A stretch of DNA of 64,000 nucleotides. It comes from Trichoplax sp. H2. Taxonomy: Eukaryota. Position 1 is the first letter of the stretch, and every line of letters begins with the position of its first letter. Below are positions 1 through 61,029 of the stretch, piece by piece. Position numbers and translations under genes: made by a program. The stretch lies in NCBI GenBank assembly GCA_003344405.1, contig NOWV01000104.1, positions 124,001-188,000 of the forward strand, in the 5' to 3' direction. Under the pieces are notes generated by a model. It did no database searches. It had not been told where the DNA came from and saw nothing but the letters and a program-made list of their open reading frames with translations.

Positions 1-1275
1 TATCAATGGGATTTGAGATATAATATTATGAAATTATCATTGACGATCTGTTAAGTCAATATAAATCAATTATTTCGAAATAATTTCTAGATTGTCCTAT
101 TCAATGCCATTACTGACGCAGGAAGTAAAATTAATGAAGATAAATATACAGTACCTTTCAATGTTTCTTCAACTACTTCAACTACGCGGTCAATTTGTTG
201 AACCTAATTTGGTTATGGTCAGTTACACGTATGTCAATGTAAAAATCTTTTAAGGTACTGCATACGTTATTAGTAAAAGGTATAATAGGTTTGCGTAGAA
301 ATTGTCGTATACAAATTCAAATAGTGCATGTTTACCCCTACTACACTTATACCATCCATTAAGGGGTGCCTTTTTTGACCTTGAGGAACACAACCGGCCA
401 AAACCAGATACTTTTTTAACTCCTTCGCCTTCCGAATATCATTATAAAAGCTGTCTTCAGCTGGATTTTTGACAGCGCAGCTATTCAACAACCATAAATC
501 AGCTTCTTCTGGTATTTCTGCGTACGAATATTTCAATAATACCATGCAAGTGCAAACGAAAGTGGTAAACATCAGACAACGTTAGCAAGGAGAAGATTAA
601 TATTTGGAAGATATCAATTACCCTCAGAATCAAGATTACAAGAAGTGATATTGTACGTACTGTACTTCTACAGTATTTAACGAGAATGAACTACTGTACG
701 TAGATGCAAGATGCTCCTTGGCACCTCGTTCATCACTATAAGATACAAAATTGACAGCAAACTTCCCTATCGATTTGGTACGTCAGTGAATTATACATGT
801 ACTATCTATTCAATGTGTAATATTTGCTAACTAAACAAGTAAACATTAGAATATGCACTTCGGAATACAGTATTAGTGCTATACATATGTTTATACGCGT
901 AGATTATAGTACGTACGCGTATTCTAGTTTATCGATATGACCTCAGCATGCATACAACTATCTCAATATCCTACCAGTGATTTTATATCCATAACTGCTC
1001 AATTGACCGGCCATATATTCACCATCAGATTTGTTATGTGAACATCCCCAAGTACGGATGTAGATACCTTGTGTTCCAGGGATGATACTGTCTCCAACAG
1101 CTTTTTCATCCACCTCGACATTGGAATCGCTCTTACCTTGTCGTTTAGATGGACGCGATCGTAATTTCACATTATTTCTTGATATTTTTGATCTTACATC
1201 AACAGAATACGATTCCTCTTTGGAGATTAAATCTTCGATATCTTCTACTGCGTTCCTTTGGCTATCTACGGACAT
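1..1275 (-). CDS. CDKAL1: Threonylcarbamoyladenosine tRNA methylthiotransferase (radical SAM); 5' part only, continues past the left edge
   Basis: Exons 1275-975, 517-336 and 203-155 join in frame with GT-AG boundaries. They give [54 protein letters not shown] and [18 protein letters not shown], the UPF0004 N-terminal domain of CDKAL1. Confidence 0.95.
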
Positions 1276-1454
1276 TTTAAGTGAAGTTTTACCCTAAGTA
1301 ATTTACATGTTATGCAGTCCACTTGTTCCAAAATGTGGAAAAGAATGCCGAAAGGAATTCGCTGCAGTAGTTTGCCTTGAGCTTCGGTGCAGCGGAAGAG
1401 ATTGTAACCGACAGTACAGAGAGCAAGCTGGTTGGCCAGATACCGCTACAATTG

Positions 1455-1985
1455 CTACAGTACAGTACATTCATTGTGCACAGTGGTCAAATGCTACAGT
1501 ACAGTTCAATGTGTTGTACTGTACATTGTACACTGTACTGTATGTCTGTACCCTCCATCTGTGCACTGCACAAATAGAATTTCCTATCCACTGTACGGTA
1601 TACAGTACTGTAAACCACTGCTACAGGGGCGTGGCAAGCCCTCTACAGTACAATGGTTGAAAGATGTTCAGCGTTGCCTTAAATATGTCTTTCAATTGTG
1701 AAGAAATGGACTTTAAATTTGGCTCGAATTCCATGTAGACAGATCTGTACAACCTTGAGCAATTGGCTTTTGATATTTTGATTACTTTTTATCGTACTAT
1801 TGAATAATTCTATTTCTTTCGAGCTTCTAATACAAACTATCAGTCGCTGTTACACGTACGGTCGCTCCAACCATTTTACAAGTCAAGTCGTAATGCCGGT
1901 CTACTGTACAGTACAGTATATAGACTCTACATTGTACTGTACAGTATACAGTACTATACTGTACTGTACAGTATGTACTGTTTTG
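1455..1985. repeat. (TACAG/CTGTA)n palindromic low-complexity arrays (about 1455-1655 and 1900-1985) between divergent CDKAL1 and sirtuin starts
   Basis: Read directly, e.g. ctactgtacagtacagtatatagactctacattgtactgtacagtatacagtactatactgtactgtacagtatgtactg at 1901-1980. Confidence 0.9.
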
Positions 1986-2040
1986 TTGATTAAGGTTAAT
2001 CAATTCTAACAAGCGATAAGAACAATTCTACCATAGTAGT

Positions 2041-3057
2041 ATGATGGCGAACCAGGAAAGCGTTGAGGATAGCTTAGGAAAATTATATTTATCCCAAGAA
2101 GGTGATGATAACTCAAAGTCGACGAAGGAGGACAATCTTGAATCTATTGCCCAATTGATTAAGTCGAAAGAATGTAAAAATATCATTGTTATGACTGGAG
2201 CTGGCTTATCAACTGCAGCTGGTATTCCCGATTTTCGATCACCTGATATTGGATTATTTACCAAAGTGATGCAAAAATATCAAGTGACAAGCCCGGAATT
2301 GGTGTTTAGTATCGATTATTTTCACGAAAATCCATCTGTATTTTATGAAATGTCTCGTGGAATGACTGAAACAGATTATAAACCTACCATAGCTCATTAT
2401 TTCTTAAAGTTATTAGCTGATAAGAATTTACTCTTGCGACATTATACACAAAATGTTGATGGATTAGATTTAGCAGCCGGTTTATCCGAAGATAAAGTGG
2501 TCACCGCTCATGGTACTATGTACACCGCACATTGTACAACTTCAGAATGCCATACCAAGTATACTTTGGAATGGTTGAAACAACAATTATTAAAAACTCC
2601 AGATATTACCGTACCACGTTGTGATAAATGTCAGGGCGTAATAAAGCCCGATGTTGTCCTTTATGGTGAACAGCTGCCAAATAAATTCTTTACTATGCGA
2701 TCTGCTGATTTCCCAAATTGTGACTTACTGATTATAATGGGAACTTCGTTGAAAGTCGAACCGTTTGCATCGTTAGTTGAACACGTTCCAGAGCATGCTC
2801 CACGCTTGTTGATCAATTTAGAAAAAACTGGCCAAGATCATGGTATGTTTAGTCGATCACCTAGTCAAATTGGTGGAATGGTTAAGCACCTTCTTGGATG
2901 GAATTCCAATCGGAAAGATATATTTTGGAAAGGAAGTTGTGATGATGGTTGCTTGAAACTTGCAGATTTACTTGGTTGGAAGCAGGAGTTGTTAAAGTTG
3001 AAAGAAGACCAACAAAAGAAACCAAGCCAAGATACTCTACCGAACGTTAAATTGTAA
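2041..3057 (+). CDS. SIRT2: NAD-dependent deacylase, class I sirtuin (SIRT2-like), single exon, 338 aa
   Basis: Contains GAGLSTAAGIPDFRS, YTQNVDGL, catalytic AHG, a Zn ribbon (CTTSEC...CDKC), GTSLKVEPFASL, PRLLINLEK and the SIRT2-type C-terminal CDDGCLKLADLLGW. Confidence 0.92.
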   Translation: MMANQESVEDSLGKLYLSQEGDDNSKSTKEDNLESIAQLIKSKECKNIIVMTGAGLSTAAGIPDFRSPDIGLFTKVMQKYQVTSPELVFSIDYFHENPSVFYEMSRGMTETDYKPTIAHYFLKLLADKNLLLRHYTQNVDGLDLAAGLSEDKVVTAHGTMYTAHCTTSECHTKYTLEWLKQQLLKTPDITVPRCDKCQGVIKPDVVLYGEQLPNKFFTMRSADFPNCDLLIIMGTSLKVEPFASLVEHVPEHAPRLLINLEKTGQDHGMFSRSPSQIGGMVKHLLGWNSNRKDIFWKGSCDDGCLKLADLLGWKQELLKLKEDQQKKPSQDTLPNVKL

Positions 3058-5520
3058 TCGTATTTCGTATATAATACAACATCGTACTTTCCTTGGTCGT
3101 GATTTATTTCACTGTATTGCTTTAATCTTATTATTGCATATACAGTAAATATGAGATTTAAATCATGCACGCACAGTGAGAACTAATGCCAGTTGCGTTA
3201 AATTGAAACAGTAGACTGAAATACTAGTAGGATTTTATTTTTAAGTTGATTGAATAGATTTTATTACCTATTGCATCATATAGAACTATACATTCAAGTT
3301 TGGGTTACATCAACCGCGTCTAAATAAGTTTTCCTAACGTCTGCAAAAGGAACTTGAATAAAATCTCAGATTAATTCATCAATGGCACCTCTAGATAGAA
3401 TATTCGTACATACTAATGAAAGAGAAATACTGCATTTAAATGCGGTATTGATTATAGGCGTATATTATTATTATTACTTTACAGGTGATTTTTATACTGA
3501 TTTCTTATATCTTAGAAATAGTAATTTTACCATCTGCTATTATATATCTAATACTGTGATACAGTCTAATGTATGAATAACGATATCGGCTACATGTATG
3601 ATATTTATATCAACTATAGATTTTATGTTTCCATTTGATTCATTACGTTATCAATTATAATAAATGTACCTGCTATAAATGTAACTAATACAGTACGTAT
3701 TTGTTACTGTATTTATAAAAGCTTAAAATGACACTTTTGCATTTGAATATCTACTATTGTAATGATGTCATCTTGCAAATATTAATAGACTAAAATGAGA
3801 TCAATAAATTCTTGAAAAATTTACAAACTTTTATATTCAAGTAAAAATTAGATGGTTTTAATCAATCACAACTGAACGGAATACATTTCGTGTAAACTTA
3901 GCACGCAAGCATTGAACAGTTACCGCAAACTATTCCAGTTGAAGTGTAAGCAATTATTCGCATATGTAATTCTTTAGTTAGATTGGCATGATTTTAAAGT
4001 GTAAAAATAACTTACTAAAAATTATTTGAGGAAGCAATCTGACTTAGTTAATCCTGTTTGTATAGACAGCCGATACTTTGGCCATACAAAAATTGAGGCA
4101 TACTTAGCTGTAGTCTCGCATCTAGTACCTACACATATGCAATTATAGTTAAGTAACATTCATTTCTAAGACGAGAATTATTTACAGTTTAGCGAAATGA
4201 ACCCCATTCACAATATTGCAAGACACCATAGCGACCGGTGTATAAAAAATTGTAACTTCTTAACATCAATTATTGAAATATGGTATAATTATGCCCGTAT
4301 CCTGCTAATTTTTAAGAATGAATGATAACATGTTTATATAGCGCTTTCCATCTTGTATGAATGTTGTAATTTAACAGATCATTGCACTATCGGAATTACC
4401 AAGTATCCTGAAGTATTAAATCATTGAAAATCACCTCCAATACAAAGTAGAATTACGCTTATAAAACATAACAATGTTTGCATTTAGGTCGACCACATGT
4501 TACAATCTGTGTGACAAATTATCACGATAAGCTTATTCGAAATGACAATAGTAAAAGATCTTGATTTTGTTTTAATTTATCATTTATGAAAAAGCATGCT
4601 TATAATATAGCCTTTCAGCGAATTTAGTGACAGGTGAATATATTTTCGTTACAATATAATGATAATACTTTGAATCTTTTTCTTCAGGTTCACAGCTGGT
4701 TATACTATCTAGCAAAGATTTACCGTTATGTTAGATATATGTATCTTTAAGACAGCTGTGCGTACACTGACTGGCGTTCAAGCTTTTCACATCAAAGCGT
4801 TACTTATAACCAATTAAGTTAGCTATGCTATTACAAGTACATTACTTGTGTCCTATCCTTAATAACAATCATAATCCAGAAAGACGTTTTACAGTAAAAA
4901 TGAAGCATATTAAATACTCAACATAGATCAGTTTTTCTTAAACTAGTAGTTGGCCACAGTACAATAACTCATATTTGTGTAAGCACAACGAGAGCTCAAT
5001 ATTGATTTACATATTTCTTATGTTGATAGTTGCTCCTTAAAGAAGACAAGCAATAAGATAGCAATCTATTCTTGTGTTTACAAAATCTTACACCGTTTTT
5101 TGGCACAATATTAGAAATTCATTCGATAAGTAGTGATGAATATACAGTACCGCAAAATAAAATCATCTTCTATATAGATTAAAAAGGATTGCATAAAAAT
5201 GAGCTCCTACTATTACAAGCTGACAAAATTTTAAGCGATTACGTTCAATTACGGGAAGTTGAGAATAATGAATATCTAGGTGTGGAATCAGTTTTAATTT
5301 TGATTTCATATAAGTGTAACGTAGTTATAAATCTCTGATCTTGAATCCACATTATATCTATTTTTTTTAAATATCAAGAGCACTAAGTTCTTGAAGTAGC
5401 TGCGTGAAAGATTTCTGCAATAACCACATCGCAGCTCCTAACAAGGGGCTAAATTTATTTAGTAAGCAAGAATACAATTAACGCTCGTTACAGTGACAGT
5501 AAAAATACTTTGCAAGACTG

Positions 5521-6315
5521 TTATTGGTCTTGATCTTTCTTTAATGTTTTTTCTCGTTTTACTTTTTCTAAAAGGGACACAGCCATTTTCTCTGCTTCAG
5601 CATCTTTACGAATAATTGCATCCTGACGATGTTGTTCTAAGAATAGTTGTAATTGTTTATGAGGCCCGTTTTTGCGTGCAGTGTCAGTAATCTCTTTATG
5701 CAATGCGACGATTCGATTATTGTTGTCTTCTTTTCTTTTCCTAATGATCTCTCCGCCTACAGTGGCTATGAAATAATGTATAATTACACCGACTAGAGAT
5801 ATTCCACATAGCCACAAAACTACAATGTAATTTTTCGTTTTGAATATTTTTGGAGGCTTAGCATAGGATTGTTGGCTATTATACCCTTGGAAATTGTTAC
5901 GCCAGTAATGGGGTGGATAAGAGGTGATGTAATGATCAGGCGTACTATGCAACTTAAAATCATAATCTTTACGAGTCGTTGGATCAAGCAGAGTGGTATA
6001 TGCTTCATTTAACTTTACGAAAGTATCATGTTTTACTTTATCACGTGGATGCCAATCCGGATGGCAATCCCTAGATTTCTTAAAATAAGCCGCTTTGATT
6101 TGTTCCTGATTGGCAAATTCAGAGATTCCTAATAGCTCGTAATGAGACTGCCGGTAAACCAAAGAAGAACGTAAATATCGAATGCAGACATACGAAATGG
6201 TATTACAGAGATGCCCTTTCAGTTGATATAAACTGGGCTGAAAGTATACGCCAAGTGTCCTTCGAGAGATACGTGTATTTACATTATTTATGAGATTTGG
6301 CAATCGAAGAAGCAT
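5521..6315 (-). CDS. DnaJ-domain protein with C-terminal transmembrane helix (DNAJC4-like), single-exon ORF, 264 aa
   Basis: J-domain HYELLGISEFANQEQIKAAYFKKSRDCHPD...FVKLNEAYTTLLDPTTRKDYD with HPD intact. Hydrophobic segment YIVVLWLCGISLVGVIIHYFIA; basic, presequence-like N-terminus. Confidence 0.85.
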   Translation of the reverse strand: MLLRLPNLINNVNTRISRRTLGVYFQPSLYQLKGHLCNTISYVCIRYLRSSLVYRQSHYELLGISEFANQEQIKAAYFKKSRDCHPDWHPRDKVKHDTFVKLNEAYTTLLDPTTRKDYDFKLHSTPDHYITSYPPHYWRNNFQGYNSQQSYAKPPKIFKTKNYIVVLWLCGISLVGVIIHYFIATVGGEIIRKRKEDNNNRIVALHKEITDTARKNGPHKQLQLFLEQHRQDAIIRKDAEAEKMAVSLLEKVKREKTLKKDQDQ

Positions 6316-7060
6316 ATTGATTGTTTCTGCCTATTAAATGTGTCATTGCACCTTATATTACATGGACAGTCGTAGTTATTGGTATGAATTATCGCCTAAT
6401 TGCCTATCTTTGTTGAAGGAAAGTGATTTGGAGAATTTACTCTATGAAATTGTAGAGTATCAGATTATGTTCTAATGCAAAGTATACCAAAGTTCAAAAT
6501 TCTTCATTGGCTGATCTTTCTCTATAGTATCGCATATCAATCTATCAATCATGAATAAGAATACATTTTCAATTCATTGACAGCAGGTATACTCGTATGA
6601 GAGTATTCTACAATCATACCATGCAAAATACGATTCTTCATTCCTACCTTAATATCCTAATATTTTAATCATGCTCTAGGTCATTGTTGGAAGTAATTCT
6701 AGGTAATACGGTCATTTCCTCGCAAGTATACGATTGCAATGATACTAGAGAGCAAAATTCTCCCAGGTCGTCTTGATCTTTCCACCAAATGCTTGGTGAT
6801 AACGTTGTCGGAAAGGACCGGCTTAGGCCGCCGTCAGGATGTTCATTTAACCTCAAGGAAGTGCTATGACTGACTAATGACTATGCAGTAGTATGTTGTC
6901 GCGAACACTCTGCACGTCATAATCCTATTACAAGAAATTAGTATTTAGCGAATGTTTCTATCTGTCAGGAGGCCTAAATCAGCACTTCAGCCACTACCCA
7001 CTGTCTACTGTATAGATGAACCGGTCCGAACCGGATCGTTCTCAGGTCTAGTCGTCTAGG

Positions 7061-7937
7061 TACAGTACTGTACAGTAAACCTCTATGGTCCACCGTACCG
7101 TCACAGTACCGTGGTGACAGTGACTGACTGTACTGTACTGTAGACTGTACTGTACAGTGCAGTACAGTACTGTACAGTCCAATAAAGTGTACTGTACAGT
7201 ACTGTATTTTACTGTACATTGTGCATGAGCGTACAGTTTACAGTACTTTACATTGTACATGAGCGTTACCCTGTGTACAGTACAGTGTACAGTACTTTAC
7301 ATTGTGCACAAGCGTACTGTACATTGTACAGTATACAGTACAGTACTGTACAGTACAGTACACATTTGTTACAAGCTGTTGTACTGTACAGTACAGTACT
7401 GTACAATACAACTTGGTCTGGTACTGGATCAAAGTGAGTGAGTACAGTACTGTACACTGTACAGTACTGTAGTTGTCAGCCAATCCCTACAAGAATTTTC
7501 TCTTTAAAAATAAAGTCACTGAGTAGCACAGTTAAACAGTTAGCATCTGGCTAGCAAATAATGATGAAATCCAAGCAGTGACATACTGCGCTGGTGATTG
7601 TTTGGTAAGGTCTGTACCAGAGATTTTCATTTATACCTACTGTATTTAGTATACTAAATCTAGTACAGCACCAGCAAGGACTACAAATATGACGGGAAGA
7701 AGTCCTGACACTGGCCATAGTCACCATACTGTACACTGTACAGTACACTGTACTGTACGTACTGTACTGTGGGCTGAAACATACTGTACTGTAGGCTGAA
7801 ACATACAGTACTGTACGTACTGCAGTACTGAAGCTACTGTACTGTACTGTGCAGTACTGTATACAGTACAAGAGCATAGTGAGGCTGAAGGATACAGTAC
7901 TGTACTGTACATAGCATATACACTCATTGTACAGTAA
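7061..7937. repeat. (TACAG/CTGTA)n palindromic arrays (about 7061-7475 and 7728-7937) between divergent DnaJ and VPS15 starts
   Basis: Dozens of tacagtac/gtactgta units in both orientations, with embedded higher-order repeats. Confidence 0.93.
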
Positions 7938-8109
7938 GGCTGAAGCGATTACTGTGGAATAATATTCTGCGCCTTACGTCACATTAAGTCAAGTCAAGCA
8001 TAGTGGTCATCCTGACATTTTGCTCAATTTTACCTTGGTCTTCAAGTCTCTTTTCCTATCTATGACACAAGGAATCCACCATAATTGATTATAGGACTTT
8101 CAAGCCGAC

Positions 8110-11100
8110 ATGGGCAATCAATTGTCTAGTTTGGCACCATCCCAGATACTTTCTGTCGATCACTATCTATCCGACCTACCGCAATATCATTATGAAAAAA
8201 GGTAACATTAGACAAATCGCAATGGTGGTCATTCTTGATGGCTATACAGTAATCTCGACTGACTAATAGTACAAGCTAGACAAACAGGGCTAAAATAGAT
8301 TACTTCTGTGAATAAATCGGATGCAATCAATAGCAAGTGCCAGTCAAGTGTTGCATTGATATAAATCTATAAAATAGAAGTTAGAAATTGTCTGATAGAG
8401 GTAATCTTCAGCTAGGTATTCTATCCGTCTACTCATTGATTTAGTCAAAAACAGATTCCGAAGCCACTTTGGTATCGTCTACTACGAGTATATCAATGTT
8501 ATATATATATATATATATATGTATATATACTGTAGTTATAAAAGACGAATAACACGATCTACTGTACAACTTGGTATCACATTCGTTCTGTATACTTAAA
8601 TACAATTGAACATAAAGCTTTAGTTTAATGTCCAGTAACGTCTTAATTTCAAGAAATACCCGTCTGAATACGTTGATGTAATTGAGACATTCGCTTTTAT
8701 CGACGTGGTATGTCTTAAAATCAGTAGGATTGGAAACTTGTATTTATCAATAGCTAAGAATTAGACAGTAAGAATAACTGATATTAACATTGGTGTGTTA
8801 TACCGTATCTAGTTTTGCTTGACTAATTCTACTGCTATTTTGATATACAATCAACTACAGTGTTAGAGTGTATCAGTGTTACTGTCTTTACTTTCGTTGT
8901 TGTGACTCAAGTCAAACTACAAATTGTACTATTTCTTCATAATCACTCGTATATTGACAGTAACCAATCTGAAATTGTACAAGTATGTAATGATCCTTGC
9001 TCTTAATTACGGCTTATCGCAATATCACGTGCAGCATTGCTGATTTGATTGCCGTACAATTCCGATACTCCTCTAATGAATGAATATAGTCGTAAAGCAT
9101 GGTATACCTACTGCATAATTATCGCTTACTAAAATACGCAACAGCAGAAGTGATTCTGTATCTGTTACATTGATCAGATATCCCTTATTAAAATAATATA
9201 TTAGAGAAGTACGATGCATTCATTTACAGATTATGTTGTATGTATTGGATACAGTATCTATGGCTGTAAAATAAACCCAAGTTTTATCGACATTTAAAAT
9301 AACTAAACTGTTGTATGTTTTTGGATTTACTTGACTTTTACTTATAGCTTGGGCAGCACTAGATTCTTCAAGGTGGCTAAAGCAAGATATAAGTAAGTGG
9401 GCTACATTCCTGCATCCCTCTTTAAACGGCTAACGTTATGACTGTATACACGTGTAGAATACTGCACATAGATAGCTTATTTGTATAGCTTGACTCAGAA
9501 GATGATCCATAGGATAATTTTAAACATAAACCATTAGTATATTTCGTTATTATAATATCGCTATGTGTAACGTTAAATATACATGTAATACCAAGTTCGA
9601 TTTTTTTAATTTGATTTCAATCTAGTTTTTGTCACTAACTATATTAGAGCTAGTATTACTTGAGTAGAGTATGATGTTATGCCAATGTAAGACTGTTTCC
9701 AAGATACCTAATTACTTAAGTTAGGCTTGTTATTCCATGTGGAAAGTTAATGATAATCTTTGACAATGAAGCTAATTCCCCGAAAGATAATTAGAGCTAT
9801 GTTAAATATTGATAAAATTTATTCGCCTCGATGACATATCGAGATATCTTGGAAATTAACTGATACTGAGCTAGGTATGTATGATTTTATTATTGCGACT
9901 ATATATCAGTAATAGCTCTTTTCATTTTATAAACAAAGGGGTGGCCTCACGGTAGTAAAAGTCTTTGCTTTACCGGATGCTCAACTACCCATGAAGTTTT
10001 TTCAAGATAAAGTGCACGGTATGAATGAGTAATATCACTTGATGTTATATTTCAAATTAGACCAGTCGTGAAGCAACTTTCTCATATCGTATGATAGAAT
10101 AAGTATTAAAACTGTTTTGTGATCTAATCTGACTGCTATTATGCAAGATGATAAATACATTTTGCATTAAGTAATAATATATTTACTATGGAAACTACCT
10201 TATAGAAACTCGAGGAAAATTAAATGGTTGTGCTAGTCTCTTGCCGTTCCAACGAACTATGGTAAATTGAAAAATTTGCTTACTTATAATCGTAGAATAT
10301 CTGTTTCAGATTTCGTATGATAATATTATGGTTCACATTAGACCTGGATTTTATTTATAATCTGTTTTTAGATATCAGACAGAGCTGCATTCCTGATCAG
10401 GCAATATATGAAATATACGCTTTACGATAGAATAAGGTATACCAAAATGCGAAATTTTAAATAGTAAAGTTTCTTAATTTACTTATTCGCACCCTTATCG
10501 TTATCTCAGTACCAGGCCATTCTTAAGCGATATTGAAAAGAAATGGATAGCTTTTCAACTATTAACAGCAGTTAAACAAATGCACAGCAGGAATGTAAGC
10601 CAATTTATGTTCAATTACCCTATAACTCATATTTTGTTAAATACAGTTTTAAATAGGTGTTGTTATCATCCATTCAGATAACTTTAATTTTAAAATCTTA
10701 CCACTCAGATTCAGCATGGTGACATCAAAACTGAAAATGTCATGGTTACTAGTTGGAATTGGTACTAACGCAAAATAAAACCTTCATTATTATTACTAGT
10801 TGTCTGCGAAGTAAGTACTTAGGTATACAAGCTTAACAATCTTGGTTTACTTGTTGTAGGGTTATGCTAACTGATTTTGCCTGTTATAAGCCAGTATATC
10901 TCCCCGAGGTAAGCTACTAGTAAATAGTAAATTTACTTTATATCCATTATTTATATCGACATTTTAAAGTCTTACACACTTTTTCTGCCTCTTAGGATAA
11001 TCCTGCAGACTTTTCATACTTTTTCGATACTTCAAGAAGAAGAAGTTGCTACATCGCATGTGAAAGATTTCTGGACAGCACTTTATTTGCTAGATTAGCA

Positions 11101-34387: not shown

Positions 34388-37300
34388 TTAATCAAAAGAG
34401 ATTTTAGTTCCTCGAAATTCCTGAATAGATCCTTTTTTTGAAGCTGGAGGACCAGACCCTCTAGGCCTTGAGAATCCTGTTACAGTTAGAAATGTTGACT
34501 TACGTATATTGTATAAGATAATTTACCTTTTAAAAACGAAATATACATTTAAAAAAGTTTTTAAACGAACCTCGCTGTCCGCCTCCACCACGTTGCTGTC
34601 CAAAGGATCTATTAAATCCACGTCGTGGTCGACCACCTCCCCCACCTGGGGAAAAATTCGATCTTTGTCCGGCAAAATCTAGGAATATATTTCGTCCATC
34701 TATACTTTTGTTCTGCATATTTTTTAGAGCTTTCGAGGTGGCTTCGGAGTCATAAAAATCTATATGCGCAAAACTAGATCGGGTAGAAACAACAATTAAT
34801 TTTCAAAGCGTTTCTTTCATGTAAAATTAACAATATTATAAAATTCCTGATGACTACAAAACTCACCCACGTGGTTTACCAGTTTCTCTGTCTGTTGCTA
34901 TTCTAACATTTTTGCAATCTTTAAATAGCTTCTGTAGTGTTTCTTCGGTAGTATTATAAGATAAATTTTTTACAAATAGGCAGGTAGACGGTTCACTGTT
35001 GCCACCACCGCCTCCTCTACCTCCGCTCGATGGATTTGAGAAACTACGGCGTTGTTGAGATGGTGTAGTTGGCTTTGCGTTAGCATCATTTATTCTTAGA
35101 TTTCTTCCATCCAACTCAGATCCATCTAATTTGATAGCATTTTGAGCATCCGCTACAGTCTCAAAATCGGCATAGCCAAATCTATAAGTAACAGTGAATG
35201 TTATCAGTACCTGCCAAAATCATTTCCAATTGAAGGTGAACCTTTCATCCCAATTTAAAGGCATGAATCTATGATAAGATAAATAATAGTAATTGTAATT
35301 CATTTTTACCCTTTCGAATCCCCAGTATTTCTATCGGTAATAATTCTAACGGAAGCAGGCTCCAAACCGTTACTTGTAAAAAAATTAGTTAAACTGTCTG
35401 TATCGGTATCATAAGATATTTTACCAATGAATACAGTTTTTCCGCCTAAATACATATAAAGAAGGTATTAAACAGTTATCAAGTGCCGAATGAATACAAC
35501 AATATGATGGCAGGACTGCTCATGATATTGATGTTAGCGCGTGAAAATAACCTTCTTCTTCTTCTTCTTCTTTCGAACGCTTGAAGCTCGGAGTAGCATC
35601 ATTAAATTCTGATTTTCGCTTTTTGGAACCAGAATTATTACCCTTGTCAGCTACTTTTTTACCATTTTCTTTCTCGTTCGTTTGTTCGTTGGAATCTGAT
35701 TCTGAATCTTCACTATCACTAGAGTCATCGCTGGCGTCTGCTTGGATTTTAGCCTCTTTGCTCTTTACCTCTGCATCACTATCATCTGAATCATCGTCTG
35801 AACTGTCATCATTATTAGATTCATCAGAGTCTTCACTTTCACTGTCAGAATCATCGTCACTTTCTTTAGACTTTTCTACAGGGGTATCTTTCGTTGTTGA
35901 TTCCTCTTCGCTATCGTCTTCGGAATCATCACTGTCTTCTATGTTAGAAATAGTCATTAATAAATTAATAAATCAGTTACGACACCATGTAAGAATCTAT
36001 AACCAAATAGCTGACCTTCACTCTCGTCATCACTGCTGGCATCCTCACCAACAGGTTGAACATTTGAGTCTGATTCATCGCTACTGTCGTCATCATCATC
36101 GCTTGTGCTACTGCTTTTATCGGCTTTTACCTTCGTAGCTACCTTGCTTATTTCCTTGCTACTATCTTCACTCTCGCTATCTGAATCTTCGCTCGACGAT
36201 TCAGAATCTGTTTCGAAAAATATTAAATTCTGTTAGTTCTATCCCACTCAAGGCAAAGTTGAAGGGGTGTAACGTAAAGGATAATCCTATATATTATTGC
36301 GAGATAGTTACCGCTATCGACTTGCATTTTTTCAGCGGCCTCCTCTTCAGAAGAATCTAAGAGAATGGATACATAGTTTGATGATTAGTACCGTAAATAT
36401 GAGCATTAATTATGAAACAGGCATACAGTACTGTGCATGTTAAAACGATGTCAAATTAAGTAATGTCCAAGAATTTCTATTCGATGCAGGCCGAGGCACC
36501 TACCGGAGTTATCGCTGTCAGAAGTATCCGCTACAGGAGTCGGATCAGTAACTTCTTCGACGCTCGAGCTATCTTCTGAGGACTAAAATATTGCAAATAA
36601 TTACTTTAATCTTGCGTAGACGAAGAATTGGCATTAGCCACAAATAATGCATTAATTTTTAGAAAGTTTTCAGCAACAATGGGGTACATACATCATCGCT
36701 GTCGCTGTCCGAGGGAGTAGGAGGGGCCGTTACTTTTGAGCGTTTATTTGCCTTTTTGGGATTACTGGGAAGTGGTACGCAATCATTAATAGGTTGATAA
36801 AACTTACACTTTAATTATAAAGAATCTTGCCACTGTACCCATATACTTATGTACACTATACTGTAGTTTAATAACCCGTTACAATACTACTGGCTCCTGA
36901 CCATCATACACATAACAATTTTAATTCGTCGGATAAGCTAACCTTTTCTTTTCAGGTATTTTAGCAACCTAAAAGCAAATAAAGCGACACGAAAGAAAAT
37001 TTAGAATTTTTTAGAATTTATAAATCAATATACAGCGTGAATTTCTACAAAGAATTATTACCTTAGCTGGCTTGACGGCGGGATTAGAATGCTTCTCGGA
37101 TTCCTTTCTCTTAGTTTTCTTTACATCCGCTTGTTTCGTTTTCTCAGCAGCCTAAATTTACAAAATGTCAGCTCAAATTTTAGGCCAATAGCATACTTTG
37201 AACATGTATTTGAAATCGACTTGATGTAACTTCAATGTATGGTACAGTAATACTAATAAACGGCGCTCCAGCAGACCGTCAAAATACATTTACCGTGAGT

Positions 37301-37516
37301 TATCGAGTACTAATAGACTTATTATGTAAATCTTTTTTAACTGTGTAGTCTGTAGTACTTGCAGTAAATTGATTTTGTAGCTTTGAAAATCCCGTAATAT
37401 GCAACACAGTGTGAGCTAGGACAGCCTACAAGTATACTACTGTAATCGATTACCGCACATACCTTGCCTTTCTTGACGGCTGCCGTTTCACGTTTCTTCG
37501 TTTTGTCACTTCCCAT
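34388..37516 (-). CDS. NCL: Nucleolin/Nsr1/gar2-like nucleolar RNA-binding protein (acidic-serine N-terminus, 2 RRMs, G/R-rich tail); multi-exon
   Basis: Start MGSDKTKKRETAAVKKGK (37516-37463), then long D/E/S tracts. RRM1 TVFIGKISYDTD...KGFGYADF; RRM2 CLFVKNLSYNTTEETL...RGFAHIDF; RGG-like tail; C-terminus QEFRGTKISFD* (stop 34388-34390), typical of nucleolin and Nsr1. An in-frame ATG at 37555 is an alternative start. Confidence 0.88.
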
Positions 37517-38888
37517 ACTGTACAACTTTTTGCTCCAATTTTCAAATCTAGTCATTTTTACAGCAATAATAGCACGCTTAGAATGTAGCCATTACAAGAA
37601 CGGAAGCGATAAATACGATGCATAATACGCATTATACTGTAATTAGTTAACATCGGCAACATCATAGCTAAAGACACTTGTCCGTATTACAGTACAATAC
37701 ATTATATTATATTACAATCGTTGCAACAGTAGCATGCATGCCAACATTGGAAAATGAATCCAGTTGCAAAGTAGTTTGCATTGTGGGCATGCAATGGAGT
37801 AAGAATTGGAACGTTTGCAACACAAAATCTTGATCCAGTGAGTCGTATTACAGTAAATGACGAGAGTCAATAGAGTTGCCTGTAGAGTTTAGAGGAGGAT
37901 TGATTGATAGTTTCGTAGCGAGCGAGGTTTGTGCTAGAAAAGGTTCACCAGCGAGCTCAGTTACGCTCGTCTATTTAGTCATAGCTCAAGCCGGAATTAC
38001 CAGTCGACAACACATTGATGAAAAGTTTTTCAACTATCATGAATGTATCACTTCTAAGTAGTGCACAATCTATTCACAGTTTGCAGTAGACTAAATCATT
38101 ATCGTTTATACGGTCTGGTTATCAGTAGATCGCATGGAGATGCCAACGATAAAACCATAGTTACCCGCTAACAACCCACACTCATCGACCTACTCGAAGT
38201 AATTGTACTGCAAGTTACTCAATGCATTGCTAATTTCGAATGTACTAAGTAGCGTAAGCTGACATGGAAGGAATATCATTTTCATTTATTTGAATGACTG
38301 AAAATAAACCCATTGATCGCTGTCTTCTATGTCTATTGAATGCAGATAGATCTCTTCTAATTAGTACAGAGCACATGATAAGATTGAATTGATAGTAATG
38401 AACATGATCTATTAGAGCATGCTGTCTCAAGACGAGCAACTTGCTCCAACTCATGGCATCAGCGTGCGTTGTATGTCAGGTTGCAATTTCCACATAGAAT
38501 AAGCCAAAAATGGAATCAAATCTGTGCAATCAATTACTAACATCGTATAGCTTGATCATTACTATCCAATGCTATTGGCTCACGAGACAAATTAGCAGAA
38601 AGAAGTCATCAAAACACATGCACCTACCGTAGAATGGTTGTCCAAGCTGGCGGTGTCACCTGTAGCAACTTGTGGTGCAAGAAATGACAAGCTTTCCCTT
38701 TAGTTTAGAGCACAGTCTACAGTAGTGCTGACAGGCTAGTGCACCAAGCTCGAGACCTAGTCGATACACAAGCCAGCGTGGAGAATGTGAAAGCTCTGCC
38801 CTTGGATTTGATACCCCCAAATTTTGAAAAATTCTTCCAGCCACATGGATCTCGGAGGCTTGGACGTCATTTGTCGAATCTCCAGTAA

Positions 38889-40665
38889 AGTACACTACAA
38901 ATTACTGTAGTTTCCTCTACTGTATGAATCACTTGAGTGTACAGCACAGTACCCTGGATTACAGTACTCCATGCTGTACTGTAAAAGAAGTACTGTACAC
39001 GATACAGTACTTTACAGTACGGTACCCTGGATTACAGTACGTACAGTACTGTACAGTACAGTACGTACTGTACTGTACTCCATGCTGCATTGCGCAATGT
39101 ACATACTGTACAGTACAGTACAGCGTGAGCCATACTGTACACTGTGATGTACTGTAGTATTGAATCTGATGTTGATGATTGACGCAGTGATGACGTAGTC
39201 CTGTACTGTACTGTACTGTACTGTACAGTACGGCTTGACCATTTCATGCCTTGTACTGTACAGTGTACAGTACAAGGCACAGTATGACTCAGTGTACAGT
39301 ACAGTACAGAGCTGTACGGAGTTACCAGAAATCATTCGCGCAGCATGGCGTGAGGGTTTGGCCATGCCGTGGACTACGAGCAGCTTTTCTGCTGGCTTGG
39401 CCAAGTATCAATGCCGAATGCATCATTATCGAAAAACGCACATGATACCGGCAACGACTACAAAAGAGAAAGAGAGAGAGACAAGAAACGATCGCTCACT
39501 ATACTAATAATATGCAGTCTACCATTGGCATCCCAATTAGCTGCAAGCTTGCAATTATGCCGTTAAGTTGAGTGAAGTTTATGCGATACGGTTTCATCGA
39601 CACCGTAGATAGTACATTATAGTACAGTACTGTACTGGAGAAGGACCGGCAAAATGATACCACATTATTTTGTACTGAAAAGCGGCTTCCCGTCCCATCT
39701 CTCTTTTCGTTTTAGCAGCCGCTGATACCGGCAAGAGGCAAAAGCCAAAAATGATCAGTATGTGCATGTTCACGTGTAAAGCACTATTGGCACTTGATAA
39801 TGATGGCTAGAAATTGGTATATTCAGTTAGTGGACATTAAACATTTTGTACGAAAAAGTATAGTACTGCACAGTGTACAGTACACTAGTAACACTACATT
39901 TTAGAATTTGGGCGATAATACTCGGCTATTCGAGTTGTCTGTAGATATTTTGCGTGAATAGATTGACACGTTTTGTGTAGAATAGCTCAGCCCGGCTACG
40001 CTGGGTTTACACTGGCTGGTAGAATATAATATAATAATAATGATTTTATTATTAATCACGTGTATCGCGTCTCCATCAATTTAAATTGTGTACTGTAGTC
40101 TTATTCGATTGATGACAGACAACAATCACAGTGTACGCTGCTGTCTCTCATGGAATTACTCAGTACAGTACAGTATATATACCACAACACTGGTACATAC
40201 TGTACACGTCGTACTCATTGCATGATGGCTGCTTAAAGCGTTAAAGCGCAAACGGTGAAATTGCCAGCTTGAATCAGTACGAAAATAAAGTTTTAAATTT
40301 ACTCCTTTCTTATACGTAGACTGTACTGGGATCATATCGGATCTACGGCGCAAATACATTACCATATATGATCCCTATACTGTTCTATAGTGCTATTGTG
40401 GAAAATCTGAGATCTCTGCAATGGAGTTGCAATGGAGTTTAATTGCAACTGAATTTCAGTTACACGTTATACCATAGTTTCTCTTCTTCCTTGAGTAGTC
40501 CTGCTTCTGCAGCTTAATTCAATTTTCAATTCTGACTGAATAATTAATTTATAATGAATTAATTACCACTCATATACAGTACAAGGATATTAAGGTGATT
40601 AATAATTAATATTGATGTACAGTACTGTACAGTAGATGTGATGGTTAAAATATACAGTACTGTAG
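38889..40665. repeat. (TACAG/CTGTA)n palindromic arrays (main block 38889-39320; smaller patches near 39610, 40160 and 40615) between divergent nucleolin and PLEKHM2 starts
   Basis: ctgtactgtactgtactgtactgtacagtac at 39201; the unit taccctggattacagtac is duplicated near 38950 and 39023. Confidence 0.9.
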
Positions 40666-41135
40666 ATTACATAATCTAGAATTATTGCTCGAACATCGGA
40701 AAAAGAAAGTATAGTAGAGTAATTGGGATATGCGGTGCACTAGCAGAACTCAGAAGTAACAAAACAAGAGGATAGCGACTGCAGTACACTAGGCGAGTTA
40801 CAAGTCATTATTACCGTAGTGTTCTATGCACTCAGCGTTAAGTGTATACTAAATCCTTTTCGGGTCTCTGGTGGACATTATTTAGTACAACGTGCACTAA
40901 ACAGTAAACACCGATATAGGACAATCGTCCACTCTTATAAAACTCCATCCTACAGCCAGTTTTCCAACAAAAATAATTCGCTAAATCTATAGGAAAACCA
41001 TAATTGTACTACGTTGACTAAATTGATTCAACGTAAATGCTTGTAGACGGCTAAGAGGTCAATTGGATCCCATGTTTCTTGTTGATTTGTGACCGTGTGA
41101 TTGTGCCCTACGTGCGTGAATGTGAACAGGACGCC

Positions 41136-52138: not shown

Positions 52139-52200
52139 TACTGTACAGTGTACAGTATATAGATTGAATTATGTACAGTATGTCATATATATACAGTATA
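52139..52200. repeat. Small TACAG/CTGTA patch about 650 bp upstream of the ORP gene's first coding exon
   Basis: tactgtacagtgtacagtatatagattgaattatgtacagtatgtcatatatatacagtata. Confidence 0.6.
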
Positions 52201-52855
52201 TTGACTAGCAATCACCCATGATCTAATCAAATAGGACACTGCAGTCTTGCTATATTTTGATACTGTAAAATGTATACATTTTTTTTCTTTCTTTTACATC
52301 ATCGATCATCAATTTGACTAGAGCGGCAAGTGCTATGTCAACAATGTTATTTTATTGTTGTTGTGGAGCAAGCATTGAAAAATTTCTATAGATATCGCGA
52401 TGTCTATGCATTTTAACAATAACATTTTTCATGCTATAGTCTTGACTAGATATACTGTAATAGCATGCACAACTTCTGTTGGCAAAGGAAATCGCTTCCG
52501 TCGTTGTCAAAGTCAAGAATAATAATACTGTACAATTGTCGATCAGTGTTGTACCGTGTCTATGATCAGCTGATTGGATAGTTGTAATTCATTCATTGGA
52601 TTAAATTGTTGGTTATTTATTTGTCCTTTTGGATGATGAAAATAGGTTGTAATTTAAAGACCCTAGATAGGAAAGGTCTCTGTTTGTACCGTACTGTATG
52701 TCAGTTGAGGAATAGAATAGAGGGTATGGATTGTCAACCATTTCCATTTTGATGCATTCATTTTAAGTTAGCTAAAATAGGACCAATTATATCGTCAAGC
52801 AGTTGACTGATCAATTTTATTTTCAAAATGGCTACTGTAGGTGCGTGATGGAGAT

Positions 52856-59269: not shown

Positions 59270-61029
59270 TTTAAATACAAAATTGGTTCATGATGTTTAT
59301 TGAATTTTCTTGCTTTCGCACGAAGCTCGATTTCTTTTGCTATTCAATTTATGTTTATTTACAATATCACATACTATAGTCACATTTTAATTAATCATCT
59401 GCGTACATACAAGTATACAACACCTATTTTATGCCATGCGAATTGATTTGTTTATAAAACTTACAATTTACTTAATTTTAAAATTTATTGCAATACACTA
59501 AAGCTGACGGATCGTAACACATGTCCATTGCACTTTAGAATATTGATCTCGCTACTAAACGAATGCGATAAACGTTTAACTGCTAATGTTACATTTTCTG
59601 TAACCAAAATGTACTGTAATAATAAGATTACATATCAATTTCTTTAATGACTTTTAACGATTTATGTAATGACTGTTGTTTAATACCAAAGATGAATACT
59701 GTGTACAAACTAAATTTAAATTTAAATTTCGTATATCGACACTATAATTGCATATTCTATGATTAATGCTGCTAGTACGAGACGGTTCATTCATGCTTAA
59801 GGCACATTTATGAATAAAGATCCTTAAAAAATTTACTGGAACCCATCACCAAAGTAATTACGAATTGTAATATAACATATAGCATTGCTGTAAACTGCTC
59901 ATTAGGTAATGACCGCATTACGCTTGGTTAACTAACTTAATCAGACTGCACAGATAATAAGCGATATAAAATGCTTCAAGTACGTAGTATCTGTTAATTA
60001 AATTAGTAGTTTTTACTGATAATAAAGGAGTGACTTAAGCAATATCCATTTTTCATAGCGCCCTTAGTTTTGTTTCTTCTAATTCCCTGGTAAATATACT
60101 TATCAAATCTCATTACAACAATTGTTTTGTCTCATTTTAGACAGACTTATACTTACGTGTTTAAATTTATCAATTAGATAATACTATTAACGTGTACAAA
60201 TCTTCTTTACTCGCTTATATTAGTCCAATGCTTTAGTTATAGCAAATACAGTACAGTACGTTGCTATTTTAATATTTAGATAACGAGCAGGTGCGTAATA
60301 ATTTATACTGTAATTTGCTTTACAAATATTCTTTTGAGAGTGCAAATGTGCGTATGTACATGTAATTATTGTCCAAAGAGAGATAGACTAAGAAATCATC
60401 TTGTGCGCAAGCTGTTAATTTTCGGAATAATGATTGATTGATTTACAGATTGCTACACTCAGAAATGTCGCATCATCGGTCGTTTGATAGCCAATATAAA
60501 ATAAGATTTACGTATATGTATTTTAGTAAAATTCAGCTGATAAATAATATCAACTTCTCTTGAGATTTACCATTCTATAGACTGAAAACGAGAGGCCAGA
60601 AAGATCAATCTCGCACTTCTATTTTACCTTATCATCTATCTTATAGGTGAATAGAGTGCAAATATAACGATCACAATTTTAACCCTTAAAAAAAAGTATC
60701 AGGTTTTCATAAGTTATTCTAATTATTTATTAAGTATGCCAACATAGTAGAGATGTCTAGCTACAACGCTACTAATCTCACATAAGTCGTAATTACCTTT
60801 CGCTATAAATAAACACACGATAAATTCAATATGGATATTGGTGCCATAAGCAAAGTTTTTATTTGCATGAATGTTAATCCTAAAAATTAGCGAATGATTC
60901 TTGTAATAACTGAAGTGTTTTAAATTCTAATCGGTAAGGCTTAAAATATCCTTTAACCTGAATTGTAACAAATTTTAAAGAAATTAAAAGATATTTAGAT
61001 TGCGACCATTGCTGTCATACAATTCACGA

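What the first reader, a model, noticed from the sequence alone, without database searches (positions are those of the whole stretch)
1455..1985. Self-complementary (TACAG/CTGTA)n arrays mark every housekeeping head-to-head promoter: candidate undescribed bidirectional promoter element
Seen: dense arrays of TACAG and its complement CTGTA, flipping orientation around the palindromes TACAGTACTGTA and TACTGTACAGTA. They occur at 1455-1985 (CDKAL1/sirtuin), 7061-7937 (DnaJ/VPS15), 38889-40665 (nucleolin/PLEKHM2) and more weakly at 52139-52200 (ORP gene). In the first two pairs the array is split into two blocks, each nearer one of the two genes. Convergent 3' regions, exons and the region upstream of NBL1 show only isolated copies. 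Inference: this is a strand-symmetric promoter mark for housekeeping genes. It could act as a multivalent site for one DNA-binding factor, a nucleosome-excluding or cruciform-forming element, or a CpG-island analogue. From memory, a CTACAGTA-like core occurs in MITE-derived nematode promoters; that parallel is unverified.
Basis: partly seen in the sequence, partly recalled or inferred. Interest (0 to 1): 0.8.

Follow-up and report, generated by a model that had tools for sequence, protein, structure and literature searches.

The report
Known Trichoplax ACAGT promoter repeat arrays
These are the five-base ACAGT repeat clusters already described upstream of genes in the tiny animal Trichoplax, seen here in more detail as a palindromic GTAC core repeated every five bases at shared gene promoters.

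Summary
TACAGTA (either strand) occurs 179 times in 64 kb against 14.9 expected. 116 of the 179 sites fall in four 5' intergenic regions that make up 7.9% of the window. The window is Trichoplax adhaerens: a sirtuin ORF is 100% identical to TRIADDRAFT_26603.

The element is not undescribed. Wang et al. 2010 (PMC2871265) reported (ACAGT)n, the same repeat in another register, as the dominant Trichoplax microsatellite, with 54% of copies within 1 kb upstream of genes, and proposed it as a transcription-factor site. The Chimaera paper (PMC12817080, 2026) found a repeating ACAGT motif linked to insulation in Trichoplax Micro-C maps.

The array is (GTACW)n, a palindromic GTAC core every 5 bp. The fifth base is A or T at random, so an orientation "flip" is a single A/T difference, and G or C is nearly excluded there (3 of 65). 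(ACAGT)n arrays from other organisms almost never flip (4%). Between strains the arrays differ by 5-bp steps.

Specificity for bidirectional promoters is not shown, because one tandem promoter also carries a weak array. My best guess at mechanism is an orientation-free, multivalent protein-binding or boundary platform at constitutive promoters. That is inferred, not shown.

The parts
1456..1650 (.). Array block nearer the CDKAL1-like gene (minus strand): 8 TACWGTA sites in mixed orientation (+++--+-+)
   Evidence: A 5-bp deletion at 1456 is seen in DNA contigs of both organisms laid, and another 5-bp deletion at 1644 in one.
1616..1903 (.). MITE-like dispersed repeat lying between the two array blocks; not part of the array itself
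   Evidence: A second copy lies at 49021-49295 on the minus strand, 75-77% identical. Both copies keep an inner 10-bp inverted repeat. 12-18 other contigs per DNA run cover 1736-1824.
1902..1981 (.). Array block nearer the SIRT2-like gene: 9 TACWGTA sites; it ends 60 bp before the first in-frame ATG at 2041
   Evidence: TRF finds period 5, 9.6 copies, at 1933-1981. Single-strand DNA fold z = -5.8.
7006..7471 (.). Array block nearer the DnaJ gene (minus strand); it contains one ACCGT x3 cluster at 7093-7112
7727..7936 (.). Array block nearer the WD40 (VPS15-like) gene (plus strand); it contains a 22-bp higher-order tandem unit at 7760-7815
38718..39306 (.). Largest dense array next to the RRM (nucleolin-like) gene: 29 sites, including a 28-bp perfect palindrome at 39051-39078
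40091..40664 (.). Two small blocks (40091-40204 with 4 sites, 40575-40664 with 6 sites) nearer the RUN-domain gene (plus strand)
52139..52839 (.). Weak, loose array (9 sites) upstream of the oxysterol-binding-protein gene. This is a tandem promoter, not a head-to-head one.
658..872 (.). Small cluster (4 sites) in intron 1 of the CDKAL1-like gene; it carries indels between strains (5 bp at 866, 10 bp at 906)
   Evidence: the intron is defined by the RNA joint 517/975
37243..37855 (.). Loose cluster (6 sites) inside the 5' part of the RRM gene
60247..60312 (.). Three sites within 66 bp in the convergent region between the oxysterol-binding-protein and enolase genes
273..1388 (-). 5' part of the CDKAL1-like gene: UPF0004 exons at 273-581 and 961-1293, first Met at 1275, RNA contig reaching 1388
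2041..3054 (+). SIRT2-like gene (SIR2 domain), 100% identical to TRIADDRAFT_26603

Best explanation
Identity (about 0.95): these are members of the promoter-proximal (ACAGT)n repeat family of Trichoplax adhaerens, already in print.

Anatomy (shown here): each 'array' is a cluster of short (GTACW) runs of 2-6 units. A palindromic GTAC core recurs every 5 bp. The fifth base is A or T with no preference and almost never G or C. The array is therefore strand-symmetric, and an orientation flip is a single A/T difference. The runs are broken up by short unique spacers, local duplications and, at 1616-1903, a MITE-like insertion. Copy number changes in 5-bp steps between strains.

Mechanism (inferred, about 0.45): the clusters act as an orientation-free, multivalent landing platform for a sequence-specific, probably oligomeric, DNA-binding protein that reads GTAC or ACWGT units on alternating faces of the helix. 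Binding would keep constitutive promoters open and make them chromatin boundaries. Because the site is symmetric, one array can serve both genes of a head-to-head pair. Slippage would tune the number of sites.
For: - Organism: the sirtuin ORF is 100% identical over 100% of its length to TRIADDRAFT_26603 of T. adhaerens.
- Enrichment: 179 sites against 14.9 expected.
- Core and period: GTAC-to-GTAC spacing of 5 is the mode, with 65 pairs. The base between them is T 33, A 29, G 2, C 1. P(3 or fewer G/C of 65 | 33.6% GC) = 1.7e-8.
- Flanks: around 143 ACWGT units in the clusters the profile is G(-4) 98, T(-3) 128, A(+3) 120, C(+4) 91.
- Orientation is random: 19 same against 25 flipped. In 198 loci from other organisms that hold (ACAGT)n the figures are 2646 same against 112 flipped (Fisher P = 1.2e-22). 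This fits constraint on GTAC plus W rather than simple microsatellite descent.
- Position: 116 of 179 sites lie in 5,086 bp of 5' regions, and 7 of 10 clusters (P = 1.9e-6).
- No hidden shared element: with the arrays masked, the four 5' regions share no other sequence, so the arrays are not pieces of one transposon.
- Genome-wide repeat: 3,527 and 3,126 DNA contigs of two runs lay on these 10 kb, and depth rises from about 60 to as much as 17,156 over the arrays.
- Slippage: 5-bp deletions at 866, 1456 and 1644 in other strains' contigs.
- Print: Wang et al. 2010 report 54% of ACAGT repeats within 1 kb and 85% within 5 kb upstream of genes, with GO enrichment for translation and protein modification. 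The Chimaera CNN trained on T. adhaerens Micro-C recovers a repeating ACAGT motif in its search for insulation-linked motifs and reports confirming its motifs by in-silico mutagenesis. Kim et al. 2025 show that housekeeping (GP1) promoters are loop anchors and hubs in placozoans.
Against: - No binding protein is known and no footprint, ATAC or ChIP data were seen here.
- The Chimaera link is a model prediction, not an experiment.
- Transcription start sites were not resolved. Only assembled contigs were available, and contigs break at the repeat.
- According to the Chimaera text, the motif Kim et al. tie to loop anchors is a different one ('ACGG', from a Mutator terminal inverted repeat). I could not see their logo.
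- Three small clusters lie away from 5' intergenic DNA.
- Scattered single sites are also about 4-5 times above chance outside promoters.
- The A/T balance could come from template switching in a palindromic repeat rather than from selection.
- The sample is small: one window and 4 array-bearing 5' regions.
Confidence: 0.5

Rival explanations
1. Neutral by-product. The arrays are slippage-prone repeats, possibly seeded by transposon ends or footprints, that expand and survive preferentially in open, nucleosome-free promoter DNA. They have no function of their own.
For: - 5-bp indels between strains.
- Low-identity, interrupted arrays (58-70% matches for the long period-5 rows).
- Local higher-order duplications.
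- A MITE-like insertion inside one array region.
- Long (ACAGT)n arrays also arise in unrelated organisms.
- Kim et al. raise targeted transposon integration into active promoters as one reading of their own motif.
Against: - G and C are nearly absent at the fifth base (3 of 65), while A and T are balanced.
- The GTAC core is kept across many short separate runs.
- Plain (ACAGT)n arrays elsewhere flip in only 4% of neighbouring units, against 57% here.
- Array density differs 21-fold between 5' regions and the rest.
- The DAN-gene upstream region, also intergenic, has a single site.
Confidence: 0.2
2. DNA-intrinsic structure. The self-complementary 5-bp repeat excludes or phases nucleosomes, or extrudes hairpins or cruciforms under transcriptional supercoiling. 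This would keep divergent promoters open without a dedicated factor.
For: - Perfect palindromes of 12-28 bp are frequent in the arrays: 31 of the window's 77 palindromes of at least 12 bp lie in the array clusters.
- Three of 4 array blocks fold as single-stranded DNA far better than shuffles (z = -4.5 to -6.6).
- The flexible TA and CA/TG steps recur every half helical turn (read from the sequence; the structural meaning is inference).
Against: - Self-complementarity follows automatically from a GTAC-based unit, so it does not show selection for structure.
- Most palindromes are only 12-16 bp.
- One of 4 blocks is not distinguishable from shuffles (z = -1.5).
- Homogeneous (ACAGT)n elsewhere would lack this property, yet such arrays are common.
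- No nucleosome or supercoiling data were available.
Confidence: 0.15
3. Multi-initiator. The CAGT core of the unit resembles the CA(+1)GT core of the metazoan initiator (recalled, not tested). A strand-symmetric array would then offer many start sites in both directions, giving a broad bidirectional promoter.
For: - An RNA-type contig of the sirtuin gene begins at 1959, inside the array at 1902-1981.
- The CDKAL1-like RNA contig ends at 1388, 68 bp short of the array and 25 bp from a two-unit mini-array at 1413-1421.
- RNA contigs from other loci carry array sequence at depths above the local genes.
- Wang et al. found ACAGT to be the commonest pentanucleotide repeat in ESTs.
Against: - Contigs cannot show transcript starts, and they break at repeats (stated).
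- The contig that starts at 1959 runs unspliced across 4.6 kb and two genes, so it may be pre-mRNA or DNA carry-over.
- DnaJ RNA contigs stop about 190 bp before the array.
- Arrays of 0.5-0.9 kb are far larger than any start-site cluster needs to be.
Confidence: 0.12

Closest known systems
(ACAGT)n microsatellite of Trichoplax adhaerens (Wang, Zhang, Meyer, Bao 2010, Biol Direct 5:18, PMC2871265)
   Same: Same organism and same unit read in another register. Same upstream-of-gene location and the same proposal that it is a transcription-factor site.
   Different: That paper counted only perfect repeats longer than 12 bp. In the parts I read (abstract, Findings part 2, passages containing ACAGT) it does not mention the GTAC core, the random A/T fifth base, the interrupted cluster structure, the two-block layout or head-to-head promoters. 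Its additional file 5, the list of loci, was not opened.
Repeating ACAGT motif recovered by the Chimaera network from T. adhaerens Micro-C (NAR 2026, PMC12817080)
   Same: Same motif and organism. It ties the motif to chromatin insulation, which in that model sits at gene starts.
   Different: It is a prediction from a sequence-to-contact-map model, given in one sentence and one figure that I could not see. No locus-level anatomy is given.
Loop-anchor motif in Mutator terminal inverted repeats at housekeeping (GP1) promoters of placozoans (Kim et al. 2025, Nature, PMC12221973)
   Same: Same genome, same class of promoters (housekeeping, clustered), and the same idea of an unknown architectural protein reading a repeat-borne motif.
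   Different: According to the Chimaera text that motif is 'ACGG'-type, not ACAGT. The logo appears only in figures, and the readable supplements do not hold it. In this window I found only one short ACCGT x3 cluster inside an array and no classified Mutator element.
GAGA-factor (GA)n elements and BEAF-32 'dual-core' CGATA clusters of Drosophila (recalled from general knowledge; no call)
   Same: Works alike: short motifs in multivalent, microsatellite-like clusters at constitutive, often head-to-head promoters that double as boundaries. BEAF-32 dual cores are two motif clusters separated by a spacer, like the two blocks here.
   Different: Different motif and different lineage. No bound protein is known here. 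This is not a membership claim.
Heat-shock element: contiguous 5-bp nGAAn units in alternating orientation, bound by trimeric HSF (recalled; no call)
   Same: An array of 5-bp modules whose orientation alternates, each read by one DNA-binding domain of an oligomer.
   Different: Different sequence. Heat-shock elements have 3-6 units in strict alternation, whereas these arrays have tens of units in random orientation. Inducible rather than constitutive genes.

Membership tests
Trichoplax (ACAGT)n promoter-proximal repeat (Wang et al. 2010) | The organism is Trichoplax adhaerens | tested here: met
   The ORF at 2044-3054 is 100% identical over 100% of its length to TRIADDRAFT_26603 [Trichoplax adhaerens]. 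The exact-sequence look-up itself found nothing.
Trichoplax (ACAGT)n promoter-proximal repeat (Wang et al. 2010) | Tandem ACAGT units, with perfect stretches longer than 12 bp | tested here: met
   TRF: 7334-7362, period 5, 5.8 copies, 91% matches; 39201-39231, 6.2 copies, 96%. In-register GTAC runs at 7338-7361, 7381-7404, 39041-39064 and 39203-39231.
Trichoplax (ACAGT)n promoter-proximal repeat (Wang et al. 2010) | Lies within about 1 kb upstream of a gene | tested here: met
   7 of 10 clusters and 116 of 179 sites lie in four 5' regions. The array ends 60 bp before the sirtuin ATG and starts 181 bp before the CDKAL1-like ATG.
Mutator-TIR loop-anchor motif (Kim et al. 2025) | Motif sequence ('ACGG' repeats according to the Chimaera text) | tested here: inconclusive
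   One ACCGT x3 cluster at 7093-7112 lies inside an array, and 4 other ACGG/CCGT clusters lie outside the dense array blocks. I did not see the published logo.
Mutator-TIR loop-anchor motif (Kim et al. 2025) | Lies in the terminal inverted repeat of a Mutator element | tested here: inconclusive
   A MITE-like repeat lies at 1616-1903, but its superfamily is unknown. With arrays masked, no other shared element is found in the four 5' regions.
Mutator-TIR loop-anchor motif (Kim et al. 2025) | Micro-C loop anchor with ATAC and H3K4me3 peaks | not testable with these tools
Plain neutral microsatellite | Units in one orientation, with length changes in whole units | tested here: not met
   Whole-unit (5-bp) indels are met. 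Orientation is not: 25 of 44 neighbouring units flip, against 112 of 2,758 in (ACAGT)n arrays of other organisms.
Transposon-borne repeat (array as part of one mobile element) | Conserved non-array flanks shared between copies | tested here: not met
   With arrays masked, the four 5' regions share no sequence at E <= 1e-3. The only match is the MITE-like element with its copy at 49 kb, and that copy carries no array.
   3 of 3 placed head-to-head pairs carry arrays, but the tandem oxysterol-binding-protein promoter also has 9 sites. The sample is too small to settle a preference.

The most novel reading that the evidence does not exclude
The ACAGT arrays and the 'ACGG' motif of Mutator inverted repeats may be two spellings of one code, (GTACN)n. 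A single placozoan-specific architectural protein would read both and gather housekeeping promoters into the 3D promoter hubs seen by Micro-C. Under this reading the system was born from a slippage-prone repeat, is strand-symmetric by construction, and so suits head-to-head gene pairs.

What fits: ACGGT differs from ACWGT only at the fifth-base position. One ACCGT x3 run sits inside an array. Contigs from other loci run straight from array sequence into ACGGT repeats.

What does not fit: G or C at that position is rare in these arrays (3 of 65), and I have not seen the published motif.
Probability: 0.15. Interest if true: 0.7.

Novelty: already known. Interest (0 to 1): 0.3.

Why it matters
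Placozoans lack CTCF, yet their housekeeping promoters form loops and hubs (Kim et al. 2025). What reads the DNA there is unknown. The ACAGT repeat is the most abundant simple repeat of the genome, sits at promoters, and is picked out by a contact-map model. It is therefore a leading candidate for a lineage-specific promoter or boundary code.

The refinement made here is a palindromic GTAC core at 5-bp spacing with a free A/T base and G/C excluded. It gives a concrete probe design for pull-down or DAP-seq, with a matched negative control. It also explains the apparent strand flipping without invoking inversions. The existence of the element and its promoter association are not new.

Tried and rejected
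- Whole genome: none is held for this window, so no genome-wide density against gene starts could be computed.
- Earlier notes of this scan: nothing for this genome, these words or this sequence.
- Kim et al. motif letters: not in the text and not in the 3 readable spreadsheets. Three PDF supplements, and Supplementary Data 1 with the inverted-repeat sequences, could not be read. They may bear on whether that motif overlaps ACAGT.
- Origin of ACAGT from ACGGT by CpG deamination: rejected. CpG observed/expected is 0.93 for the window, so there is no sign of methylation-driven CpG decay.
- Hidden RNA genes in the arrays or spacers: Rfam at gathering threshold gave 0 matches and ARAGORN 0 genes.
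- Transcript starts from public runs: only assembled contigs were available. They break at the repeat and cannot show ends, so array position relative to the start site stays open. Stretches without RNA cover are not used as evidence.
- Orientation of units against gene direction: the strings are mixed in every block, with no bias to report.
These are homogeneous (ACAGT)n and are not comparable arrays. None was used as a placozoan relative.
Not tested.
- Nematode MITE parallel: one search returned 80 papers; the 20 listed looked unrelated by title and abstract start.
- Further print record: searches found no other paper on this motif in placozoans, and none on bidirectional promoters in Trichoplax.
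- Codon-bias gene finding was too weak to place genes at 19-25 kb, 26.5-34 kb and 46-52 kb, so promoters there, if any, are not counted.

Full report
**What is there**

TACAGTA, counted on both strands, occurs 179 times in the 64-kb window. Dinucleotide-preserving shuffles give 14.85 +/- 3.8, and none of 100 reaches 179. The five rotations of ACAGT are the five most over-represented pentamers of the window, at 2.1-2.6 times expectation.

Grouping TACWGTA sites (gaps of at most 200 bp, at least 3 sites) gives ten clusters:

| Cluster | Sites |
|---|---|
| 658-872 | 4 |
| 1456-1650 | 8 |
| 1902-1973 | 9 |
| 7006-7936 | 48 |
| 37243-37855 | 6 |
| 38718-39306 | 29 |
| 40091-40204 | 4 |
| 40575-40664 | 6 |
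| 52139-52839 | 9 |
| 60247-60312 | 3 |

126 of the 179 sites are in clusters. Three small clusters were missed.

**Genes and organism**

I scanned 387 stop-to-stop ORFs of at least 45 aa against Pfam. The hits place these genes:

| Pfam family | Likely gene | Strand | Position |
|---|---|---|---|
| UPF0004 | CDKAL1-like | minus | 273-1293 |
| SIR2 | sirtuin | plus | 2020-3054 |
| DnaJ | DnaJ | minus | 5524-6330 |
| WD40 exons | VPS15-like | plus | 16.0-17.5 kb |
| DAN | NBL1-like | minus | 25474-25701 |
| RRM_1 exons | nucleolin-like | minus | 34866-35467 |
| RUN (weak, below the curated cut-off) | PLEKHM2-like | plus | 42537-42704 |
| Oxysterol_BP exons | ORP | plus | 56.9-59.1 kb |
| Enolase_C exons | enolase | minus | 61.1-62.8 kb |

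The sirtuin ORF is 100% identical over its full length to TRIADDRAFT_26603 of Trichoplax adhaerens, so the window is from that species or a near-identical strain.

RNA-type contigs laid on 1-10000 confirm several structures:
- introns of the CDKAL1-like gene (201/334 and 517/975, minus strand);
- a 5' exon of that gene reaching at least 1388;
- DnaJ exons at 5668-6541 and from 6648 to at least 6814;
- introns 8199/9346 and 9392/9939 of the plus-strand gene after the second array.

**Association with 5' ends**

Four 5' regions (1294-2040, 6815-8065, 38700-40743, 51800-52843) total 5,086 bp, or 7.9% of the window. They hold 116 of the 179 sites, which is 22.8 per kb against 1.07 per kb elsewhere. 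They also hold 7 of the 10 clusters (binomial P = 1.9e-6).

All three head-to-head pairs that I could place carry arrays. The DAN gene has one site upstream.
- The oxysterol-binding-protein gene lies in tandem, not head-to-head, and still has a weak array that ends just before its first strongly coding exon (first Met at 52856).
- Clusters also lie in intron 1 of the CDKAL1-like gene, inside the RRM gene and in a convergent 3' region.
- Scattered single sites outside promoters are still several times above chance.
- The enolase promoter lies at the window edge and cannot be judged.
- Any genes at 19-25, 26.5-34 and 46-52 kb could not be placed.

**Grammar**

The most frequent distance between successive GTAC words is 5 bp (65 pairs). 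The base between them is T 33, A 29, G 2, C 1. The array is therefore (GTACW)n: a true 4-bp palindrome every half helical turn, plus one A/T base.

TACAG and CTGTA differ only in that one base, so an orientation flip is a single A/T difference and needs no inversion.

Around 143 ACWGT units in the clusters the flanks are G(-4) in 98, T(-3) in 128, A(+3) in 120 and C(+4) in 91. Neighbouring units are as often flipped as not: among 44 12-mers the pairs are AT 14, TA 11, AA 10, TT 9. G or C at the fifth base is far rarer than base composition predicts (P = 1.7e-8).

For comparison I scanned public contig collections for five in-register GTACW units. Their arrays are homogeneous: 2,646 same-orientation neighbours against 112 flips, compared with 19 against 25 in the window (Fisher P = 1.2e-22). 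The Trichoplax arrays are thus not ordinary microsatellites. They are clusters of short runs (2-6 units) with random A/T, broken by short unique spacers and by higher-order duplications of 10-31 bp.

**Dynamics and spread**

Two DNA runs from two coded organisms each laid more than 3,000 contigs on these 10 kb (3,527 and 3,126). Summed depth rose from about 60 to as much as 17,156 over the arrays, and the unique contigs break inside the arrays. The repeat is therefore present at very many loci.

Both organisms carry arrays at the same places. They differ from the window by deletions of exactly 5 bp at 866, 1456 and 1644 and by a 10-bp insertion at 906. That is what replication slippage would produce.

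With the array words masked, the four 5' regions share no other sequence. The arrays are therefore not fragments of one mobile element.

The split of the first array into two blocks has a specific cause. A MITE-like dispersed repeat lies at 1616-1903. It has a second copy at 49021-49295 (75-77% identical, carrying no array), an inner inverted repeat kept in both copies, and many further copies in the DNA runs. In the second pair the spacer at 7472-7726 is unique sequence.

**What is already in print**

- Wang, Zhang, Meyer and Bao 2010 (PMC2871265; abstract, Findings part 2 and all passages containing ACAGT read). ACAGT accounts for 78% of 7,233 pentanucleotide microsatellites and is the major simple repeat of the genome. 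54% of copies lie within 1 kb and 85% within 5 kb upstream of the nearest gene. Nearby genes are enriched for translation and protein modification. The authors propose a transcription-factor site.
- The Chimaera paper (PMC12817080; passages read). [quoted passage not shown] The first belongs to a transposable element already tied to insulation by Kim et al., and the authors report confirming their motifs by in-silico mutagenesis.
- Kim et al. 2025 (PMC12221973; section 8, methods passages and figure legends read). About a third of placozoan genes, housekeeping ones, form promoter hubs. The loop-anchor motif lies in Mutator terminal inverted repeats, and the reading protein is unknown. The motif letters appear only in figures, and the readable supplements do not hold them.
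- Eight text searches found no further record of the motif in placozoans, and none of a link to bidirectional promoters.

**Mechanism**

Shown:
- a strand-symmetric GTAC-based array;
- constraint, or a biased process, that keeps A/T at the fifth base;
- concentration at 5' regions;
- slippage in whole units;
- genome-wide spread.

Inferred as most likely (about 0.45): an orientation-free, multivalent platform for a sequence-specific, probably oligomeric protein that keeps constitutive promoters open and makes them boundaries. One symmetric array could serve both genes of a divergent pair.

Rivals:
- A neutral repeat that thrives in open chromatin (0.2).
- An intrinsic structural effect (0.15). 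Palindromes reach 28 bp, and 3 of 4 blocks fold well beyond shuffles, but self-complementarity follows automatically from the unit.
- An array of initiator-like CAGT cores (0.12). RNA contigs touch or approach the arrays, but contigs cannot show transcript starts.

I rejected one idea of my own. ACAGT did not arise from ACGGT by CpG decay, because CpG observed/expected is 0.93.

**Comparison and verdict**

This is a member of the published Trichoplax (ACAGT)n family; organism, unit and upstream location were all tested and met. In the way it works it most resembles GAGA-factor (GA)n elements and BEAF-32 dual-core CGATA clusters of Drosophila. In module architecture it resembles heat-shock elements. 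All three comparisons are recalled from general knowledge and are not membership claims.

Novelty: already known.

The boldest reading still open is that ACAGT arrays and the ACGG-type transposon motif are one (GTACN)n code read by a single architectural protein. I put it at about 0.15.

Noticed in passing
1616-1903 and 49021-49295 (minus strand): A MITE-like dispersed repeat of about 280 bp. The two window copies are 75-77% identical and both keep an inner 10-bp inverted repeat. 12-18 other contigs per DNA run cover part of it. The superfamily is unknown. Only the copy lying between the arrays has array sequence beside it.
   Followed up: partly
7093-7112: A short ACCGT x3 run inside the DnaJ/WD40-gene array. 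It may be an instance of the 'ACGG' transposon-borne loop-anchor motif named in the literature. I could not see the published logo.
   Followed up: partly
7760-7815: A 22-bp higher-order tandem unit (2.5 copies, 94% matches) inside the array. A GGCTGAA word recurs four times between 7783 and 7945. The arrays therefore also grow by local duplication, not only by 5-bp slippage.
   Followed up: no
8500-8529: A (TA)15 microsatellite in the first intron of the plus-strand gene after the second array. RNA and DNA contigs break there.
   Followed up: no
39320-40570: About 1.25 kb of mostly non-array sequence lies between the large array and the small blocks near the RUN-domain gene. No Pfam hit was found and no Rfam match. 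I could not tell whether it holds a separate transcription unit.
   Followed up: no
L115-L198 (for example L132/L133, L166, L173): Several contigs binned into 'bacterial' metagenome-assembled genomes carry many long homogeneous (ACAGT)n arrays. This looks more like eukaryotic host DNA placed in the wrong bin than like bacterial sequence.
   Followed up: no
P0003, P0004: Two unnamed sirtuins 72-73% identical to the window's protein sit on short contigs (1.4 and 2.3 kb). They are plausibly orthologues from distant placozoans. Their upstream DNA would test conservation of the array but could not be fetched.
   Followed up: no
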